64,000 nucleotides of DNA, taken from the NCBI GenBank assembly GCA_951804945.1, contig OX638158.1, positions 35,216,001 through 35,280,000 of the forward strand. The letters run 5' to 3'. Origin of the DNA: Podarcis cretensis (lineage: Eukaryota). The translations under genes and the position numbers were made by a program. Positions within the stretch are counted from its first letter, which is position 1. Every line of letters begins with the position of its first letter. Positions 2,068 to 51,538 of this stretch are shown piece after piece. The notes beneath the pieces were generated by a model that had not been told where the DNA came from, searched no databases, and saw only the letters and a list, made by a program, of their open reading frames with translations.

Positions 2068-2114
<47 letters not shown>

Positions 2115-3020
2115 TTTATTTATATCCCGCCCTCCCCAGCCGAAGCCGGGCTCAGGGCGGCTAACAACAATCAAACAATCAAACAATCAAATAATCACAC
2201 ATTCTAAAAATATTTTATTATAAAAATCAATTAAAATCAAATTAATGGCAACTGATCAAGCAAGATTCTGTGCAGGTTGCCAGAGGAGGGAGTCAGGCTG
2301 CGCCCTGACCAAAGGCCTGGTGGAACAACTCTGTCTTGCAGGCCCTGCGGAAGGATGTCAGGTCCCGCAGGGCCCTAGTCTCTTGTGACAGAGCGTTCCA
2401 CCAGATTGGAGCCGCAGCCGAGAAGGCCCTGGCCCTAGTTGAGGCCAGCCTAACCTCTCTGAGGCCTGGGACCCTGAGGATGCTATTATTTGCAGACCGT
2501 AGGTTTCTCTGTGGGGCATACCAGGAGAGGCGGTCCCGTAGGTACGAGGGTCCTAGGCCGTATAGGGCTTTAAAGGTTAAAACCAGCACCTTAAACCTGA
2601 TCCTGTACTCCACCGGGAGCCAGTGCAGCTGGTATAGTACAGGATGAATGTGAACCCGCAGCGAAGACCCCATAAGGAGTCTCGCCGCGGCATTCTGCAC
2701 CCGCTGGAGTTTCTGGCGACATCCAACTGGGACTCCACTCCAGATTTGTGTAGGATTTACTCTTTAGCCCTTTCTTCTCCCAAGAATGTCCCACAAGGCA
2801 GATGAAGTCTGTCTTTGCATGCAGGGGAAGTCCCTAACTCACCGAGGGTTTGAATCCCATCAGCTATCCTCACTTGGTTTAACTGGCCGGTCAAAGACAT
2901 TTCTGGCATGCTGACAGCTTCTAGGAATCATGGGTGAGAGATGTGCTGAGTGGCAAGCAAAGGCGGACAAACTACCTCAGAAGGAGCATAATGCATCCCC
3001 AACAGAGTACTCCTCCTGCT
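1828..3020 (-). mobile_element. Non-autonomous RTE-tail retroelement (SINE-like), interrupted by an L2 insertion at 2069-2714
   Basis: 1828-2068 plus 2715 onward align colinearly with the uninterrupted copy at 47704-48112; terminal ~60 bp match the 3' end of the RTE LINE at 21709. Confidence 0.75.
2069..2714 (-). mobile_element. 5'-truncated L2-clade LINE (ORF2 C-terminus, 3' UTR, TTA-repeat tail)
   Basis: ORF 2293-2700 QNAAARLL..LHWLPVEYRIRFKVLVLTFKAL..RAFSAAAPIWWNAL..FRRACKTELF is the L2 ORF2 C-terminal signature; (AAT)n tail 2069-2112. Confidence 0.9.
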
Positions 3021-3181
3021 TTAACACCCTATACAACTTATACAACTTATAAATGATAAGTTACACATCCTGTGATTTCTTTTTCTACACCTGTTAAACC
3101 ATGTATTCTTAGGCAATTGTTCCTTAAAACATCACTGTAATGACATTAGAAGCAATACGTATTTCCCTCCTAAAACCTCAC

Positions 3182-3358
3182 CTGTTTTGTTGATTTTTTA
3201 GTGCCATTAAAAATCTTCCAAGCAAGCCCATTGCCACCGCTAGCAATATGTCGTCCAACATCAAATTCCCTGGTAACTGGATTTCCCATGACTGCACTAG
3301 TGACATCTGCAGTCACTTTCGTAACTGTGCTCTTCAATTTGTTTAGCATGGACTCCAT
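3182..3358 (-). CDS. SCYL2: SCY1-like pseudokinase 2, first coding exon (exon 2 spans 3182-3386); gene continues left of the window
   Basis: MESMLNKLKSTVTKVTADVTSAVMGNPVTREFDVGRHIASGGNGLAWKIFNGTKKSTKQ = SCYL2 N-terminus; donor CAG|GTGAGG at 3181, acceptor TTTTGTAG at 3387. Confidence 0.97.
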
Positions 3359-5379: not shown

Positions 5380-6170
5380 CAGCGCGGCAAAGCAGCCCTC
5401 CCTCTTACCTGAGAAAGGGTTTGAGAGCTCCTGCCACACCGCAGGCAGATAGGCCCCTTGCCTTCCCTCTCCCCAAGTCGGCTGACAGCCACTCGGCAAC
5501 TGCCTGTTCGTGGGCGGCGGCACAAAAGGGAAGCTCCCCCCCCCCAAGCCCTCTTGCCCCACTTTGTGAGCAGCCCAGGCCCAACCCTACGGTTCTGAGG
5601 AAGGAAGCGAGCAAGCCCTTCCCTTCTCAGCGGTCTCAAGGCCACGCTCGGCCCCCCCGCCGCAGCAACAGCCCCGCTGGCTTCTCACCTCAACCTGAAG
5701 GGGGGGGGGAAGCGCTGCCCCACCGCGGGGCGTGGTTGACCGTGCCGCGACCCCCGGCTCTGCTACGCCATGACGGCCACCTCAGCACAACCTAACCTGA
5801 CCGGTTCGAACACAGTGTATATATATATTTATTTCTCTCTCTCGCTTCCGCCTCCGCTGCTGTCACTGGGAGAGAAAACAGGGCACGGGAGCTGAGGCCG
5901 GAAGTCGAGCCCTAGGAAGCCCCGCCCCCTCCGCCTCGCGCCGCCAACGGCGGTTTCCGCGAGGGCGGCAAGTTTGATTGTCAGGGCGACGAAGCGCCGG
6001 CCGAGCCCTCCGTTGAAAAAGCGGTACGGCGGGTTTGTTTCTTTTGCCCCCCCCCCCTCACCGGGATACTTTCGAGCCTCCGCGGTTGCCTTTCCGTTCT
6101 CTCACAGCGAAGTAAAGCGGTGAAGTTGTGGGAGAAGAGGAAAAGGCGTAACAGGTTTAAGGCCGAGGAG
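5380..6170. promoter_or_regulatory. CpG island / SCYL2 promoter with ETS site CCGGAAGT (5898-5905) and GC box CCCCGCCCCC (5920-5929)
   Basis: High GC and CpG density against an AT-rich background; motifs read directly. Confidence 0.85.
5797..5900 (-). other. SCYL2: Probable non-coding exon 1 (5' UTR) of SCYL2
   Basis: Within CpG island, downstream of ETS/GC-box motifs; candidate donors CCG|GTCAGG (5801) and CAG|GTTAGG (5796); TSS approximate. Confidence 0.6.
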
Positions 6171-6560
6171 GAGGAATATATACGGACTTGGTTCTCTCAG
6201 CGGAGTGGTCCATGCAAGTGGGGCAGGATAGCAGATCAATTATTATTAAAATACATACTGAGTGAATGTACCACAAAAACGGCAAAAGGAATTCTGTGTA
6301 AATATGTATGTGGACAGTGGTCAAACTTCACTAAGTTTGTTTGTTTTTTCTATGAGGGGACCAAGTATGTTGAGATATATTTTACTTCTAAGGCAAACAT
6401 TCTCCCAAGGAGCAACAAGGCATAGTGTTGGCCCTCAGGCAGTGTATGGTTTCCTATGGAAATGTTAAGGTTCTGTGGTAGGCTACCATAAGGAGTAATG
6501 ACTACCCCAGAGACACCTTAGGGTTGTTTCATCCCCTTTATTTGTCAAGGTGTAGCTGTA

Positions 6561-6928
6561 GGGACGCAGGTGGCGCTGTGGGTTAAAGCCTCAGCGCCTA
6601 GGACTTGCCAATCGAAAGGTCGGCGGTTCGAATCCCTGCGGCGGGGTGCGCTCCCGCTGCTCGGTCCCAGCGCCTGCCAACCTAGCAGTTCGAAAGCACC
6701 TCCGGGTGCAAGTAGATAAATAGGGACCGCTTACCAGCGGGAAGGTAAACGGCGTTTCTGTGTGCGGCTCTGGCTCTGGCCAGAGCAGCGATGTCACGCT
6801 GGCCACGTGACCCGGAAGTGTCTCCAGACAGCGCTGGCCCCTGGCCTCTTAAGTGAGATGGGCGCACAACCCCAGAGTCTGTCAAGACTGGCCCGTATGG
6901 GCAGGGGTACCTTTACCTTTACCTTTAC
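6561..6928 (+). mobile_element. Full-length Sauria SINE (Squam1), tRNA-derived
   Basis: GGGACGC start, A box TGGCGCTGTGGG (6571), B box GGTTCGAATCC (6625-6635), (ACCTTT)n tail. Confidence 0.92.
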
Positions 6929-7885
6929 TAGCTTTTTTAGAAAGATGAATAGACAGGATTCATCCAATGGGGTGGGATTCTTCCTATTTCCCCAGTTATT
7001 CCTTTATGCTGCAGCTATAGCTTGAATGAATCTTTATTTGCATCAGCCATAGCAATAAAACAATACGATATACAAAGAATAGAAATAAAAAGTCAATTAT
7101 ATAAAATACATTTTAGGGTTTTGAATCAATAGTCATATATCTTCAAGGGCTCTGGGCTCTCTTCCAGCTTTAAGATTTAAAGTCTTTCAAGTCTTCCAAC
7201 GAGCTGATGTTCCAAATAAAGGTCTTCCATAGAAAGCTATATCATAGGGTGTATTTCATGATTAGTAACCTTTCCCACATCTTCTAATCCACTAGCATAC
7301 GTTTTGAACAAGTTGGTGTTGTGGACAGAAGTTACTTCCAAATTACTGTTTTGTGAGGTACAACTGTTTATGTACACACACACAAATTGCACGCCTCTTC
7401 GTAAGTGTAGAACAGCTCAGGTAAACATAGCAATGGTGTCTGGCTGCTTTTCCCTGTCCAGATTGCACCACACCTATGAGCAATAGGTTGTCATTCTGAA
7501 ATGGGGAAAACAAATTAATCCTTGAACAAAATCCAAGGTGGAAGAGTTGCAGTTTTTTATTTTAAAAAAGCAACACATGGCCTGTAGCTGATCTGAGCTG
7601 TTTCTCTAATAAAACACATCATAATACTTTTTATTATAAAAATGTTTTAAATTGGTGACTCTTTTTGTTTGACTTGAGCATCTACTGTTGTCCTCTTTTT
7701 ATTCCCTTTCACAGAAAATAAAAGCATTCCTGCTTAAATCCCTCTTTAATATAATAGTAGATAGGAATTGTTAAGCGGAGTGTTTGAAGAAATCTGGAAC
7801 TAGCCTTCTAGATTTATGATCTAGTGTTCTTGTGTTCAGTTACAATACAACCACTATTTTCCAAATAAACTTTGGATTCAAATGT

Positions 7886-7891
7886 TTTATT
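7886..7891 (-). terminator. Candidate ACTR6 polyadenylation signal AATAAA
   Basis: TTTATT on plus, ~290 nt after the ACTR6 stop; further candidates near 7700 and 7556. Confidence 0.5.
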
Positions 7892-8183
7892 TCATTTTCC
7901 TAATAAATATTCTAGCATATTGTTAATTGAAGAAATGTACTTTTATGGATATATTTTCATTTCAGCCATTTGCATCCAGTTTTCAGTTTCTACCAGCATT
8001 TGAGCGGCAAAGAATATGAAGGAAAAAACCCAATAAGCTACATGTATATAAAAATGAATAAAACCTTACATATATATTGACAGTACAGTTTCATTCTTTA
8101 AAAAAAAACTACAGGGTTCCAATCTAAGAAAACTTCCCAGGTCTTTAACATATACAATATAATGTCCATATCTTGTGAACCAT

Positions 8184-8313
8184 TTAAATATCAAATTTCT
8201 CTTCACATATACTATGTCCATTTTCTTCATAGTCTTCTCTGGTTACCACCATATCTTCAAAATCGTCATTTTCAGAAATCAGCTTTCCACCTTCCCAGGA
8301 ATAAGTAATAGGG
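8184..8313 (-). CDS. ACTR6: ACTR6 exon 11 (last coding)
   Basis: PITYSWEGGKLISENDDFEDMVVTREDYEENGHSICEEKFDI*. Confidence 0.96.
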
Positions 8314-11300
8314 CTGGAAAGTCAATAAAATAATTGTGTAAACTGTAAAATACAGTTAGTTTACAAAGTTAGTTTAATATTGATTTTCAGTATCGGCTAG
8401 TACTACATTATATGACATTAGAATATGGAATATAAAAATAGAGTGGGTAACTGTCAGTTGAGAATCCACATTTGTAACTGAAAGGTTACTTACTTCTCTG
8501 GCAGAACAACAGAAACATCGTAGTCAGTGGGAGTGAGGCATCGGACCTCAGAGTAAACACGATCCCTGAAGCCGGGGAGATGTGTGTTTCCACCAGTTAA
8601 AACAATATTCTTAAAGAAATGTGGTTGCATTTCTATGAAGACCAGAAAGAAACAAGTTATAATTCTACAATAACTTGCTTGATTTTATATAGTTATATTA
8701 AGTCTGTAATGAAAAGCATTGGAAGCACTTGCATCGGAGTCTGTAATGAAAAGCACTTGCATTGGAGGCAGTACCTCAGTCACATGTTTAAATATTCTTC
8801 TAATGCAAATTGCTTACTTCCAAGTTTATGAAGAGGGTGCTAAGTGTTCTGGCTCCCAATCAACTTTGGATGCATTAAACTACTTAATTCAGAAGTCTGG
8901 ATAGTGCATAGGTAACTTCAGCAATTTTACAACAGTAACATGTCAAGAAATAGTGTTTATTACAATCTGATACTGGAGAATTTCTAGAACAGAGGTTTTC
9001 AGTCTTTTTGAGTCCGTGGCTCCCTTGACTAACTACATTCTTTCTGCAGCACCCCTGTGGGGCTTAGGAGCCCAGCCTCTCACCCTTTTTCAAACACTCC
9101 CTTGAGTGTTCCCTCAGCCTTCTCTCCTCTCCTCAGAGCAGCCACTGCTGCCATCCCTGGTCTCTGAGCTGTCCCCCCCCCCCCCCGCCCACCTCAAAGA
9201 GATGTGCCTCCTCACACTGCCCCACAGGGGCCTGGAACATGTCTGTCCATCCCCAATAGCAACGGCTGGTGGACTGGCTGGCTGGGTTCCCTCACCTGTT
9301 TGCTTGCTTACTCCAAGGTTGTCTCAGTTCCTGGCAACCAGCACCCCCTTACCAGCCCCCGAGGCACCATTTGCCTGCAGAGCTTGTAGCCATGACTGCT
9401 GCAACAAACAGCTGTACAAGCCTTTGGGAGGCAGAGATGCAAGAGGGCATCAGAGGAAGGAGGGAAGGAAAAAGGGACAGAAGTCAGCGTTGCCCATAAT
9501 ACCCCTGACCATCCTTCAAGGGTGCCATGGTACACTGGTTGAAAACCACTGTTCTAGACAACTGAGTTTTTGTCCTTGATATGGGAACTTTAGAAGCAAA
9601 ACAAAAAGTCTAACTATGCAACATGTTCTACAGTTAATTTTGGTAGTTACATTGTTTAAATAAGAATACCTTCCGGCAAGTTCTGAATTGAATAAACAAT
9701 GGCTTCAGGAATTCCCATTTCTTGAATACCAATATCTGAAGGATGGAAGAGTATCTCTGGAACAGCAAATCGCTCATTTGTAAGACGAAGTATTTGTTCA
9801 CCAGTTTTGTATTTTCCACTTAACACCATTTCTTCCCTTGGCTAAATCAAACAGATGTGAATTAACACACATGTAATAATGAAACCAGCTTTTAATATCA
9901 ACATTAATCAGTCACCTTATTTGCATGATTTTTCCCATGTAGTAGCTGGGATCCAAAACCTGTATGGGAATTTGAAACTTGTATATTTCTTCCATACAAT
10001 TATACCTAGCTATATCAGCACATAATAACATAGAAATTGCAGCCAACATGCTATGACTGAACAGTAAGAGGATGAATCAACAAACGAAAAATGGCAATTC
10101 ATTTCACATCCCCCCTCTCTCAATAGAGACTTTATTTTTTTTCTAACTAGGTTGCATAAGTGTTGGAGAACCTTTCATCCTCCAGATGTGTTAATTACCT
10201 TGTTTTAAATTTGCACTTTACATCTGACTTCCTCTAATAATGTTTCCTTTTGAAACATTTAATATAATTTTTTATTATCTTTGCTGCATTAAATGTTCAT
10301 TCTGTAGTTGACCTCCTTTGTAATGTTTTAGTTTCAAAATCTTAAAGGCAATATTTTAATTTCCTGTTAATTATGCTGCTTTGAATATATACTTTATATT
10401 GGACTTTCTTCTGTAATGTCTTCTTCTGGATTGTTTTATTTGATGTAGGTTGTAAATGCTTTGAGATCTTTTTCTTAAAAATATATGTAAGTATAGAAAT
10501 GAAATGAAATGAAGAAGAAGACTGATTTTATGCAATTACCTTACAAAACCCTTTTTTTATTGTGCTGAAGTCTGGTAAAACATAGTCCAACATTACTGTA
10601 TTTTCTTCCCCCTTCAATCTGAAACAGGTTGGAATTCAGAATACATCCTAAAGTTAATGATTCTTCAGAGCCACAAAAAAATATATATTTCATTGTAAAT
10701 AAATAATTAACAATTTACCCTAATATGGGTCTAAGTCCAACTTTCTCAAATGTGGAGACCTCTCAAAAGGAGGCTTTGATGATAACTAAATAAGAAAGCT
10801 GCATAGGATAACCTCCTTTTGACTTTTAATCAGTAAGACAGCTCACCACTATTTGGGGTATTCAGTGCATATAGATGTTGAACTTAATAGCGGGACAATC
10901 ACACCTTGCATGGGGTTTATGTTCTGGGGATGGCAGGAATATGCAAAACTGTGTAAATTCAAACCACCCCCACATAAGTATCCTTGCCAAGCGAGCCTTA
11001 CCATCATCCCCCACACCCCGGGAAGACAGCTTTTAAGCTCTGCCATGCTTACCAGGCAAGTCCCGCACACTGCATAGGCTTTGGGATGCTCTTGCAAGTT
11101 CCTGTGGGACTGTCTGAGTTCCTGTGAGATCTTGCAACAACATGCCAGAACCTGTGTGCACTCTGCGTTGCATGCAATTTCAACCACATAAGTTAATTGC
11201 ATATGTAGAGCTTGAAAATGATTTGGAACATTGCAGATGCTTCAGTAACGGAATCAAGACTATAAACCCAAGTCTGGCTGAAATGAGACCTCAAAGATCA

Positions 11301-16340: not shown

Positions 16341-17970
16341 AGCAAATACTGTAGGGGGAAAGTCATAGAGATAGGAAATTATAGAAGAGCTCTAGATTCC
16401 TATGTTTGAGTGTTAGGCGTAGACTTGTAATCTTAGACTAATAGAGTTAGTTTTAATATAAACTTAGACTGCTTCATCCCAGTTTCCAGTTTCAGTTAAG
16501 TCCATTCAGACAAGAAAGGGGGATGTCTGTTCTTTGAAACATTCTGTTTTGGGGACCTTTTAGGCATGCATCGGGTGAGATGCTCGGATAGCATCAGCGT
16601 TCACTTACAATATCTGTATAGCCTTATATTTCCGCATCTATATAATATGCGAGTACTGTGTATAATTATCGTGGAAACCTCTGTAAGGGAAAACTTCAGC
16701 CTCCAGCACTTCTGCACTGTAGGGAAAATTATGTCGCTCAGAGCCAGCTCTCGTCATCTGCAATATAGTCTAATATGTAGACGTTTTATTTATTCGCTGC
16801 TGATGCAGACTTCCCAAGACATTTAAAAAAAAAAAAAAGCTTAAAGGAATGTGTGACTGTGTGTCTCATTTTTCACCCATACAAGGCAATCTGGGTTGTG
16901 TCCTTTAAACACGTTTAAACATTTATTAAAGTGGAAGGTCAGAAATTGGATAGTCAAAACGCAGTATTTCACTTACACTAGTTATCCCACACTGCATAAA
17001 CAAAATCCTATCTTTTAGTTGAGGGTAGGTATTGTCTTCATACTTTTAAAAATTCTACTATGACTTTTTCCCTTCAGGCTTTTGGATAGTTTGCGGGCTT
17101 AAGGTGATTTTATGCAGCTTGACACTTTGCAATTATTTCAGTAGTACTTATTATTCCCGAGTAATTGTAAACAGGATATGCTCTTGGATTTTGATGGCAA
17201 TTAGATGCTCAAATTTGTGAGGAGAAAAACAGTATAATGTAGGGAGGGGCAATAGGGAAGGAATTCTAAATTGCTTTAAGGAGTCAGATCTTCTATGCAC
17301 AACATCATTCCCCTCTCATAGCGAATTTGGGTGACAGGGTTCATCGCGAAGAGAGAGCTCAGGAAAATAAATCGTGTTTTTGTATTACGCTCCTGATAAA
17401 CGTTGTAAGTGGACCTGGAAAACAGGTACTTAAGTGCTATTGTGTAAAAGCTGCCCCTCTTCGTTGCAAAAACAAAAAACCAACTCCTCAAGATATTTCT
17501 CTTTCCCAGTTTGGAAAACGGACTTTTGTGAGTGGGGCGGTGAGGCTTCCAGGCCGGCGTGCCTCGCTGCCGTGAAATTATTCCACTAAAGCTTGGATTT
17601 AGCGGGCGTCATTCACCGGAGGCAAAAGGTGACATCGGCGTCAGGCAGCAGCTCCCGGGGAGCCCTTGTGGCGGGATCCTCGCCGCCCTTGCCCGCCGAA
17701 TCCCGGCCGAGAGCCGCCCGCTTCCCCCGTCCGGGTTCCAGGCGGGCGGCGCTCCTGGCGCTGGTGCCGCCCTTTCCCCGCCCGGCTCTGCTCAGCGAAA
17801 GCCTGTCAGCTGGCGATACTGCAATCAAGATGGCGGCGGGGCCGGAGAGCGGGTGAGCGGGGGCGCCTCCGCTCCCTGGCACAGGACGGCAGGAAGCGCC
17901 GGGATGGGTCGAGGAGCGCCGGGTTTCTTTCGGTTTCCCTGAAGCGGGCGGGGGGTGAGGCGCGCTGGCC

Positions 17971-51538
<33,568 letters not shown>

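What the first reader, a model, noticed from the sequence alone, without database searches (positions are those of the whole stretch)
5950..8180. DEPDC4 appears lost: only ~2 kb separates the SCYL2 promoter from the ACTR6 3' end
Established: in human and other vertebrates DEPDC4 lies head-to-head with SCYL2 and tail-to-tail with ACTR6. Seen: all flanking genes (SCYL2, ACTR6, BLTP3B, ANKS1B) keep the human order and relative orientation, but the gap is ~2.2 kb, partly filled by a Sauria SINE, with no ORF encoding a DEP domain. Inference: lineage-specific deletion/pseudogenisation of DEPDC4.
Basis: partly seen in the sequence, partly recalled or inferred. Interest (0 to 1): 0.7.

Follow-up and report, generated by a model that had tools for sequence, protein, structure and literature searches.

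The report
Lizard lost DEPDC4; fossil exon remains
This lacertid lizard's genome assembly has no intact DEPDC4 gene, which birds, turtles, frogs and fish keep; the gene was likely deleted from between its two neighbours, leaving what is likely a 41-base scrap of its last exon inside the neighbour ACTR6's untranslated tail, an ordinary kind of gene loss not found reported for this gene in reptiles.

Summary
Observation confirmed, with corrections. The genome is a lacertid lizard (DEPDC7 exon 97% identical to Podarcis lilfordi). Neighbouring genes keep the expected order. No DEP domain lies in the gap or on this contig. Emu and turtle DEPDC4 find only the paralogue DEPDC7 and distant DEP genes genome-wide. 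Corrections: about half of the '2.2 kb gap' (7106-8183) is ACTR6 3' UTR, shown by spliced RNA contigs of a relative. The Sauria SINE (6553-6928) is a late insertion, absent in contigs of five runs, so it did not cause the loss. New: window 7978-8020 (+) looks like the splice acceptor and first 13 codons of DEPDC4's last exon, with the expected strand, intron phase and end of the gap (8/13 identical to emu; 0 of about 45,500 control AG sites score as high). The candidate was spotted post hoc and is weak without the splice anchor. Best reading: deletion of exons 1-8, bounded by the SCYL2 promoter and the ACTR6 UTR, shared by close relatives. How far the loss extends in squamates was not testable. 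Not found in print for reptiles; mouse also lacks coding DEPDC4. Ordinary paralogue loss, modest interest. No earlier scan finding matched.

The parts
5688..5867 (-). SCYL2 non-coding exon 1 (5' end at least 5867; gene name recalled)
   Evidence: RNA-type contigs of organism F cover 5687-5867 and 5687-5826; GT donor next to 5688
3176..3358 (-). SCYL2 first coding exon, approximate left end (ATG at 3358; name recalled)
   Evidence: Read from the sequence; no Pfam or PDB hit for this exon alone; later exons hit Pkinase
5868..6552 (.). GC-rich SCYL2 promoter region and unique DNA, where DEPDC4 exon 1 would be expected; no remnant detected
   Evidence: Single copy in the genome; exon-1 profile not above control, 30 of 197 windows as good
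5916..6425 (+). 169-codon open frame without ATG; judged chance
   Evidence: only a sub-threshold Pfam hit; broken by a 2-base insertion and a 4-base deletion in run X4 of the same coded organism
6553..6928 (+). Sauria SINE (body 6558-6928) with a 5-base target-site duplication; recent, presence/absence variable
   Evidence: Contigs of X1, X2, X6 and X11, X5 join 6552 to 6929; tail and TSD
7022..7139 (-). 118-base 3' tail of a high-copy repeat, probably a LINE (inferred from AATAAA plus microsatellite end); carries an AATAAA at 7033-7038 in ACTR6 sense
   Evidence: 39 other copies at 90-96% among 40 scored of 781 candidates
7150..7268 (.). Older repeat fragment
   Evidence: 3 other genomic matches at 71-79%
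7106..8183 (-). ACTR6 3' UTR (minimum extent, from a related organism)
   Evidence: One contig of X15 joins exon 8494-8634 to 7106-8313; X17 pieces cover the same range
7978..8020 (+). Likely DEPDC4 last-exon remnant: AG acceptor 7978-7979, 2-base split codon, then 13 codons (FSFYQHLSGKEYE against emu FTFCQRLTSKEYE); frame stops at 8078-8080
8184..8313 (-). ACTR6 last coding exon, stop codon at 8184-8186

Best explanation
DEPDC4 is absent as an intact gene from this lizard's assembly, and was likely removed by one or more deletions that took exons 1-8 and likely left only a decayed start of the last exon, antisense inside the ACTR6 3' UTR. The deletion was probably bounded on one side by the SCYL2 promoter and on the other by the ACTR6 UTR, both still needed (inferred). 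The retained whole-genome-duplication paralogue DEPDC7 probably made the loss tolerable (inferred, untested). The loss predates the split of the related lizards sampled; the SINE came later.
For: Shown. Pfam DEP scan: 21 matches of 38 candidates, none on this contig, one DEPDC4/7-type. Podarcis DEPDC7 finds its own 9 exons plus 2 weak DEP hits. Emu DEPDC4: 10 matches of 13 candidates at E<=1, 6 at the DEPDC7 locus, none on C10. Turtle DEPDC4: 10 of 11 at E<=10, 5 at the DEPDC7 locus, none on C10. These searches see the paralogue at 31-59% identity, so an intact orthologue should be seen. Layout shared: single contigs span the promoter to 7050 (skipping the SINE) in X1, X2, X11, two overlapping contigs in X6, and 7106 to beyond the ACTR6 stop in X1, X2, X6, X11, X5. 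Remnant: AG, phase 1 and first residues match DEPDC7's last intron in this genome; bird isoforms end or diverge at the same point. Anchored profile score 32.0 against control maximum 26.3, 0 of 32,618 AG sites, 0 of 6,000 shuffles. With six single queries at three lengths, 7980 was the best of about 150 gap AG sites in 18 of 18 cases; 0-2 of about 45,500 controls reached it at 13-15 codons; emu 43 against maximum 30. Identity 6-8 of 13 to 158 of 160 DEPDC4 sequences, mode 5 for 56 DEPDC7. DEPDC4/7 as a duplication pair: 10.1101/667535 passages.
Against: The remnant is short and was spotted before the test was designed. Without the splice anchor it is weak: tblastn E 1.6 (BLOSUM62) or 0.053 (PAM30), rank 11 in the window by HMM, 2 of 197 control windows as good, one of 9 exons tried. 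Across the 16 boundary tests the bound is only P<=0.07, set by the control size. At 10 codons 8 controls reached it, at 30 codons 1; with the frog query at 20 codons, 24. Similarity ends after codon 13 even with frameshifts allowed. No locus-specific contig listed for any of 8 runs bridges 7050-7106. The genome search scores only first-look candidates and could not take a profile. The deletion junction and its cause were not located.
Confidence: 0.88

Rival explanations
1. DEPDC4 is lost, but the 13-codon match is chance and nothing of the gene remains.
For: Unanchored scores are not significant; the stretch is AT-rich UTR; the candidate was found post hoc.
Against: Strand, end of the gap, AG and phase all agree with the expected last exon, and six diverse queries pick the same site; 0 of 6,000 shuffles of the AT-rich part.
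Confidence: 0.12
2. An assembly collapse at the repeat 7022-7139 hides part of DEPDC4, perhaps a short DEP-only form.
For: 7050-7106 is not bridged by a listed locus-specific contig in 8 of 8 runs; the assembly-wide absence cannot exclude a collapse.
Against: The stretch lies inside one repeat that 39 other copies match colinearly across it, which explains the contig break; depth is alike on both sides in X1 (16.2 and 15.5); 1.5 Gb in 51 contigs; the last exon, outside that spot, is already broken.
Confidence: 0.02
3. DEPDC4 moved elsewhere or diverged beyond detection.
For: Only single-protein and Pfam searches of the whole genome were possible, with a first-look filter.
Against: The same searches detect the older paralogues DEPDC7 and, weakly, DEPDC1-type exons; the DEP exon has many invariant columns from fish to mammals.
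Confidence: 0.02
4. The locus survives as a non-coding RNA from the shared promoter, like mouse VINAS.
For: Mouse has a lncRNA at this position (PMC7710319 passages); the GC-rich promoter is kept.
Against: Under 0.9 kb of non-SINE DNA lies between the promoter and the ACTR6 UTR, and no DEPDC4-like sequence was found in it.
Confidence: 0.08

Closest known systems
Squamate gene losses by segmental deletion with a retained paralogue (Salve et al. 2026, PMC13005343)
   Same: Flanking synteny kept, shortened intergenic distance, paralogue retained; exon remnants reported for CYYR1.
   Different: DEPDC4 is not among their 53 genes: it occurs once in the supplements, in the list of all human genes. 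Their set required absence in all 30 annotated squamates and an intact copy in five outgroups including chicken; which filter DEPDC4 failed is unknown.
Mouse VINAS lncRNA at the DEPDC4 position (PMC7710319)
   Same: Same neighbourhood (SCYL2, ACTR6, ANKS1B); coding DEPDC4 missing.
   Different: Mouse keeps a transcribed locus with about 74% similarity to DEPDC4 over 157-323 bp; the lizard has lost nearly all the DNA.
DEPDC7 (paralogue, intact at G000:C1:67.14-67.16 Mb)
   Same: Same last-intron position and phase, related last-exon start.
   Different: Intact 9-exon gene on another contig; the remnant is closer to DEPDC4.
Sauria SINE
   Same: (ACCTTT)n tail, target-site duplication starting with T.
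   Different: Nothing unusual; this copy is absent in contigs of five runs.

Membership tests
Gene loss by segmental deletion | Flanking genes in conserved order and orientation | tested here: met
   ACTR6, BLTP3 family, kinase gene; human order from PMC7710319 passage, orientations recalled
Gene loss by segmental deletion | No intact orthologue elsewhere in the genome | tested here: met
   single-protein and Pfam searches only
Gene loss by segmental deletion | No assembly gap or collapse at the locus | tested here: inconclusive
   No N in the window; all bridged except 7050-7106 inside a repeat; no long reads listed
Gene loss by segmental deletion | Interval shorter than in species that keep the gene | tested here: inconclusive
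   2.3 kb cannot hold a 9-exon gene like DEPDC7 (about 12.4 kb here; coding length alone about 1.6 kb); outgroup intervals not available
Unitary pseudogene (remnant at the orthologous place) | Recognisable orthologous sequence at the syntenic place, right strand | tested here: met
   Anchored tests; weak when unanchored
Unitary pseudogene (remnant at the orthologous place) | Reading frame disabled | tested here: met
   Similarity ends after 13 codons, stop after 32 codons against 71 in emu; exons 1-8 not found
Squamate-wide gene losses (Salve et al. set) | Absent in all annotated squamates | not testable with these tools
   Only this vertebrate genome can be searched; the DEPDC4 protein search listed 120 of 560 hits, all birds
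Squamate-wide gene losses (Salve et al. set) | Intact in frog, alligator, chicken, turtle and human | tested here: inconclusive
   Named DEPDC4 seen for Xenopus, snapping turtle, emu, crow, alewife, coelacanth; none seen for chicken, duck or crocodilians among the listed hits
Sauria SINE | (ACCTTT)n 3' tail and target-site duplication beginning with T | tested here: met
   empty site
Sauria SINE | tRNA-related head and Bov-B-derived 3' part, alignment to the consensus | not tested
   No consensus held; body resemblance is recalled

The most novel reading that the evidence does not exclude
DEPDC4 has been lost again and again in amniotes (mouse, this lizard lineage, perhaps chicken and ducks), the lizard loss reaches across squamates and was missed by the 2026 survey because its chicken filter failed, and the only fossil of the gene survives because it is embedded antisense in ACTR6's 3' UTR, which would let the loss be dated from transcriptomes alone.
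Probability: 0.3. Interest if true: 0.45.

Novelty: new member of a known kind. Interest (0 to 1): 0.28.

Why it matters
DEPDC4's function is largely unknown (PMC5175133 passage), and its human protein was not detected in one tagging test (PMC7710319 passage), while birds, turtles, frogs and fish keep a full-length gene. A clean deletion in lizards shows that an amniote can live without the protein and probably without an RNA from the locus. It adds a candidate to the squamate gene-loss list and shows how a neighbour's UTR can preserve a fossil exon. It opens no new mechanism, hence the modest score.

Tried and rejected
No run on record as RNA held the stretch ('no RNA holder listed'). Two RNA-type runs of organism F had no cover at 5885-6469; this is a blank in contigs and is not used as evidence. 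The 169-codon frame 5916-6425 was rejected as a gene (no ATG, frameshifted in X4). Other remnant candidates were rejected: an SNPLA-like stretch ending at 7297 (exon 3; 9 of 197 controls as good), a donor-anchored hit at 7316 (3 of 25,322 controls, P 0.02 before correcting for 16 tests), an exon-5 hit at 7571 that came from a mis-set anchor and vanished, and an exon-1 look-alike near 6100-6170 (30 of 197). In one search two anchors were mis-set and exon 3 was left out; one search corrected this. Its DEPDC7 positive control recovered 6 of 8 acceptors and 4 of 8 donors, so absence of exon 2 and 3 boundaries is weakly tested; exon 2 absence rests on the unanchored tests (DEPDC7 scores 263, gap 27). 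The SINE as cause of the deletion was rejected (absent in relatives that share the loss). No target-site duplication was seen by eye around the 7022-7139 repeat; it was not shown to be the junction. The search for squamate DEPDC4 proteins failed to answer: 120 of 560 hits listed, all birds; DEPDC4-like sequences among the other hits were fish, frog, turtle, bird, mammal or unnamed. The CHST16 supplement gave no lizard DEPDC4 row. Earlier scan findings: nothing by place or sequence, unrelated rows by words.

Full report
Source and setting. The window is G000:C10:35,216,001-35,280,000, in a 1.51 Gb assembly of 51 contigs. Its DEPDC7 DEP exon is 97% identical to Podarcis lilfordi and 95% to Lacerta agilis, so this is a lacertid lizard. 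ACTR6's last exon is on the minus strand with its stop at 8184-8186. BLTP3-family exons follow on plus. A kinase-domain gene runs on minus to the left. The names SCYL2 and ANKS1B and the human orientations are recalled; the VINAS paper states that SCYL2, ACTR6 and ANKS1B surround DEPDC4 (PMC7710319, passages).

Is DEPDC4 missing? I obtained named DEPDC4 proteins from emu, crow, snapping turtle, Xenopus, alewife and coelacanth. The Pfam DEP model gave 21 matches of 38 candidates in the genome, none on C10, and only one of the DEPDC4/7 type (assignment of the other loci is by recall). Podarcis DEPDC7 found its own nine exons and two weak DEP hits. Emu DEPDC4 gave 10 matches of 13 candidates at E<=1, six at the DEPDC7 locus with 31-59% identity, none on C10. 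Turtle DEPDC4 gave 10 of 11 at E<=10, five at the DEPDC7 locus, none on C10. Searches that see the paralogue should see an intact orthologue. In the window, tblastn and a 130-sequence HMM gave no significant hit.

Is the gap real? Contigs of eight runs were laid (4, 4, of 24 listed). Single contigs of X1, X2 and X11, and two overlapping contigs of X6, run from the SCYL2 promoter to 7050, joining 6552 directly to 6929; X5 shows the same joint; X4 breaks there. Single contigs run from about 7106 past the ACTR6 stop in X1, X2, X6, X11 and X5. This covers four coded organisms (A, B, C, E), up to about 3% diverged. The stretch 7050-7106 is not bridged by any listed locus-specific contig. It lies inside a 118-base repeat tail that 39 other copies match colinearly, which explains the break. 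No long reads were listed, so a collapse is not formally excluded; I put it at 2%.

What fills the gap. The Sauria SINE at 6553-6928 has the (ACCTTT)n tail and a 5-base target-site duplication starting with T (PMC13295347, passages). It is missing in contigs of five runs, including two of the organism closest to the window, so it is recent and variable and cannot have caused a loss that relatives share. A contig of RNA-type run X15 joins ACTR6 exon 8494-8634 to 7106-8313, and X17 covers the same range in pieces. So 7106-8183 is ACTR6 3' UTR in that relative, and SCYL2 exon 1 reaches at least 5867. The truly intergenic DNA is at most 1.24 kb, or about 0.86 kb without the SINE. The 169-codon frame at 5916-6425 has no ATG and is frameshifted in X4.

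A likely fossil exon. One search showed a weak match of emu residues 472-484 to 7982-8020 on plus, the strand and the end of the gap where DEPDC4's last exon should be. In this genome DEPDC7's last exon starts after a phase-1 intron at the homologous residue, and several bird DEPDC4 isoforms end or diverge at that point. The window has a pyrimidine-rich run, AG at 7978-7979, two bases, then 13 codons with 8 identities to emu. I scored every AG-anchored site against exon-start profiles. The site scored 32.0, against a maximum of 26.3 among 32,618 control sites from 486 kb of this genome, and 0 of 6,000 shuffles reached it. With six single queries at 13, 15 and 20 codons it was the best gap site in 18 of 18 cases; at 13-15 codons 0-2 of about 45,500 controls reached it. 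It is closer to DEPDC4 (6-8 of 13 in 158 of 160 sequences; 160 of 178 had a parsable exon start) than to DEPDC7 (mode 5; 56 of 120 parsable). Against this: it was spotted before the test; unanchored it has E 1.6, rank 11 by HMM, and 2 of 197 control windows match as well; over 16 boundary tests the bound is P<=0.07; similarity stops after codon 13 and the frame ends after 32 codons. I put the remnant at about 85%. No other exon left a significant trace.

Mechanism. Shown: no intact gene in the assembly, a short interval shared by relatives, a UTR over half of it, a late SINE. Inferred: one or more deletions removed exons 1-8 and stopped at DNA the neighbours need, the SCYL2 promoter and the ACTR6 3' UTR; the last-exon start survived because it lies in that UTR. 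Whether frame-breaking mutations came before the deletion cannot be told. DEPDC4 and DEPDC7 are a family pair in blocks from the vertebrate genome duplications (10.1101/667535, passages), so cover by DEPDC7 is plausible but untested. DEPDC7 is cited as binding CARMA2/3 and regulating NF-kB (reference title in PMC5978004).

Comparison with what is known. This matches the class of squamate losses by segmental deletion with a retained paralogue (PMC13005343: abstract, Results part 1 of 3, one Methods section, passages, supplement file 1 parts 1 and 14 and a term search). DEPDC4 is not among its 53 genes. Either some squamate keeps it or one required outgroup lacks it. None of the 120 listed DEPDC4 hits (of 560) was a chicken or duck, whereas DEPDC7 lists held them; this is only a lead. 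Mouse lacks coding DEPDC4 and has the lncRNA VINAS there. Paper searches: 'DEPDC4' 24 papers, 23 listed, none on reptile loss by title; the full name 0; with 'lizard' only the CHST16 paper; with 'pseudogen' 4 listed, none on this; a broad gene-loss search. Public annotation tables and papers outside the library were not seen; supplements of most papers were not searched.

Verdict. A real, apparently unreported gene loss of an ordinary kind, with a small fossil exon as added evidence. New member of a known kind; interest 0.28.

Noticed in passing
window 6553-6928: The Sauria SINE is a presence/absence variant: contigs of two runs nearly identical to the window (X1, X2) and of three related organisms lack it; usable as a population marker about 0.7 kb from the SCYL2 start.
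   Followed up: partly
window 7022-7139 and 7033-7038: ACTR6 RNA contigs run into this repeat tail and stop at 7106; the tail carries an AATAAA in ACTR6 sense, so the longest ACTR6 UTR may end on a repeat-donated signal. Four more AATAAA lie at 7556, 7630, 7698, 7886.
   Followed up: partly
protein hits; P0331: No chicken or duck among 120 listed DEPDC4 hits (560 in all). An unnamed bird-like DEP exon, P0331 (76% to emu), has changes at invariant or nearly invariant columns, like a decaying copy. Possible further loss in birds.
   Followed up: partly
G000:C1 about 67,153,230 (L062): DEPDC7 intron 6 appears to have a GC donor.
   Followed up: no
window 6466-6467: A 16-base segment present in X11 and X5 is missing in the window.
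   Followed up: no
window 2110-2760: A LINE reverse-transcriptase 3' fragment on minus (frame 2296-2763) with a (TAA)n tract at about 2070-2112, in a SCYL2 intron; family recalled as L2-like.
   Followed up: no
window 5410-5564: A low-depth RNA-type contig of X17 lies inside SCYL2 intron 1; alternative exon or pre-mRNA.
   Followed up: no
window about 17,500-18,050: ACTR6 and BLTP3B start head to head in one GC-rich island.
   Followed up: no
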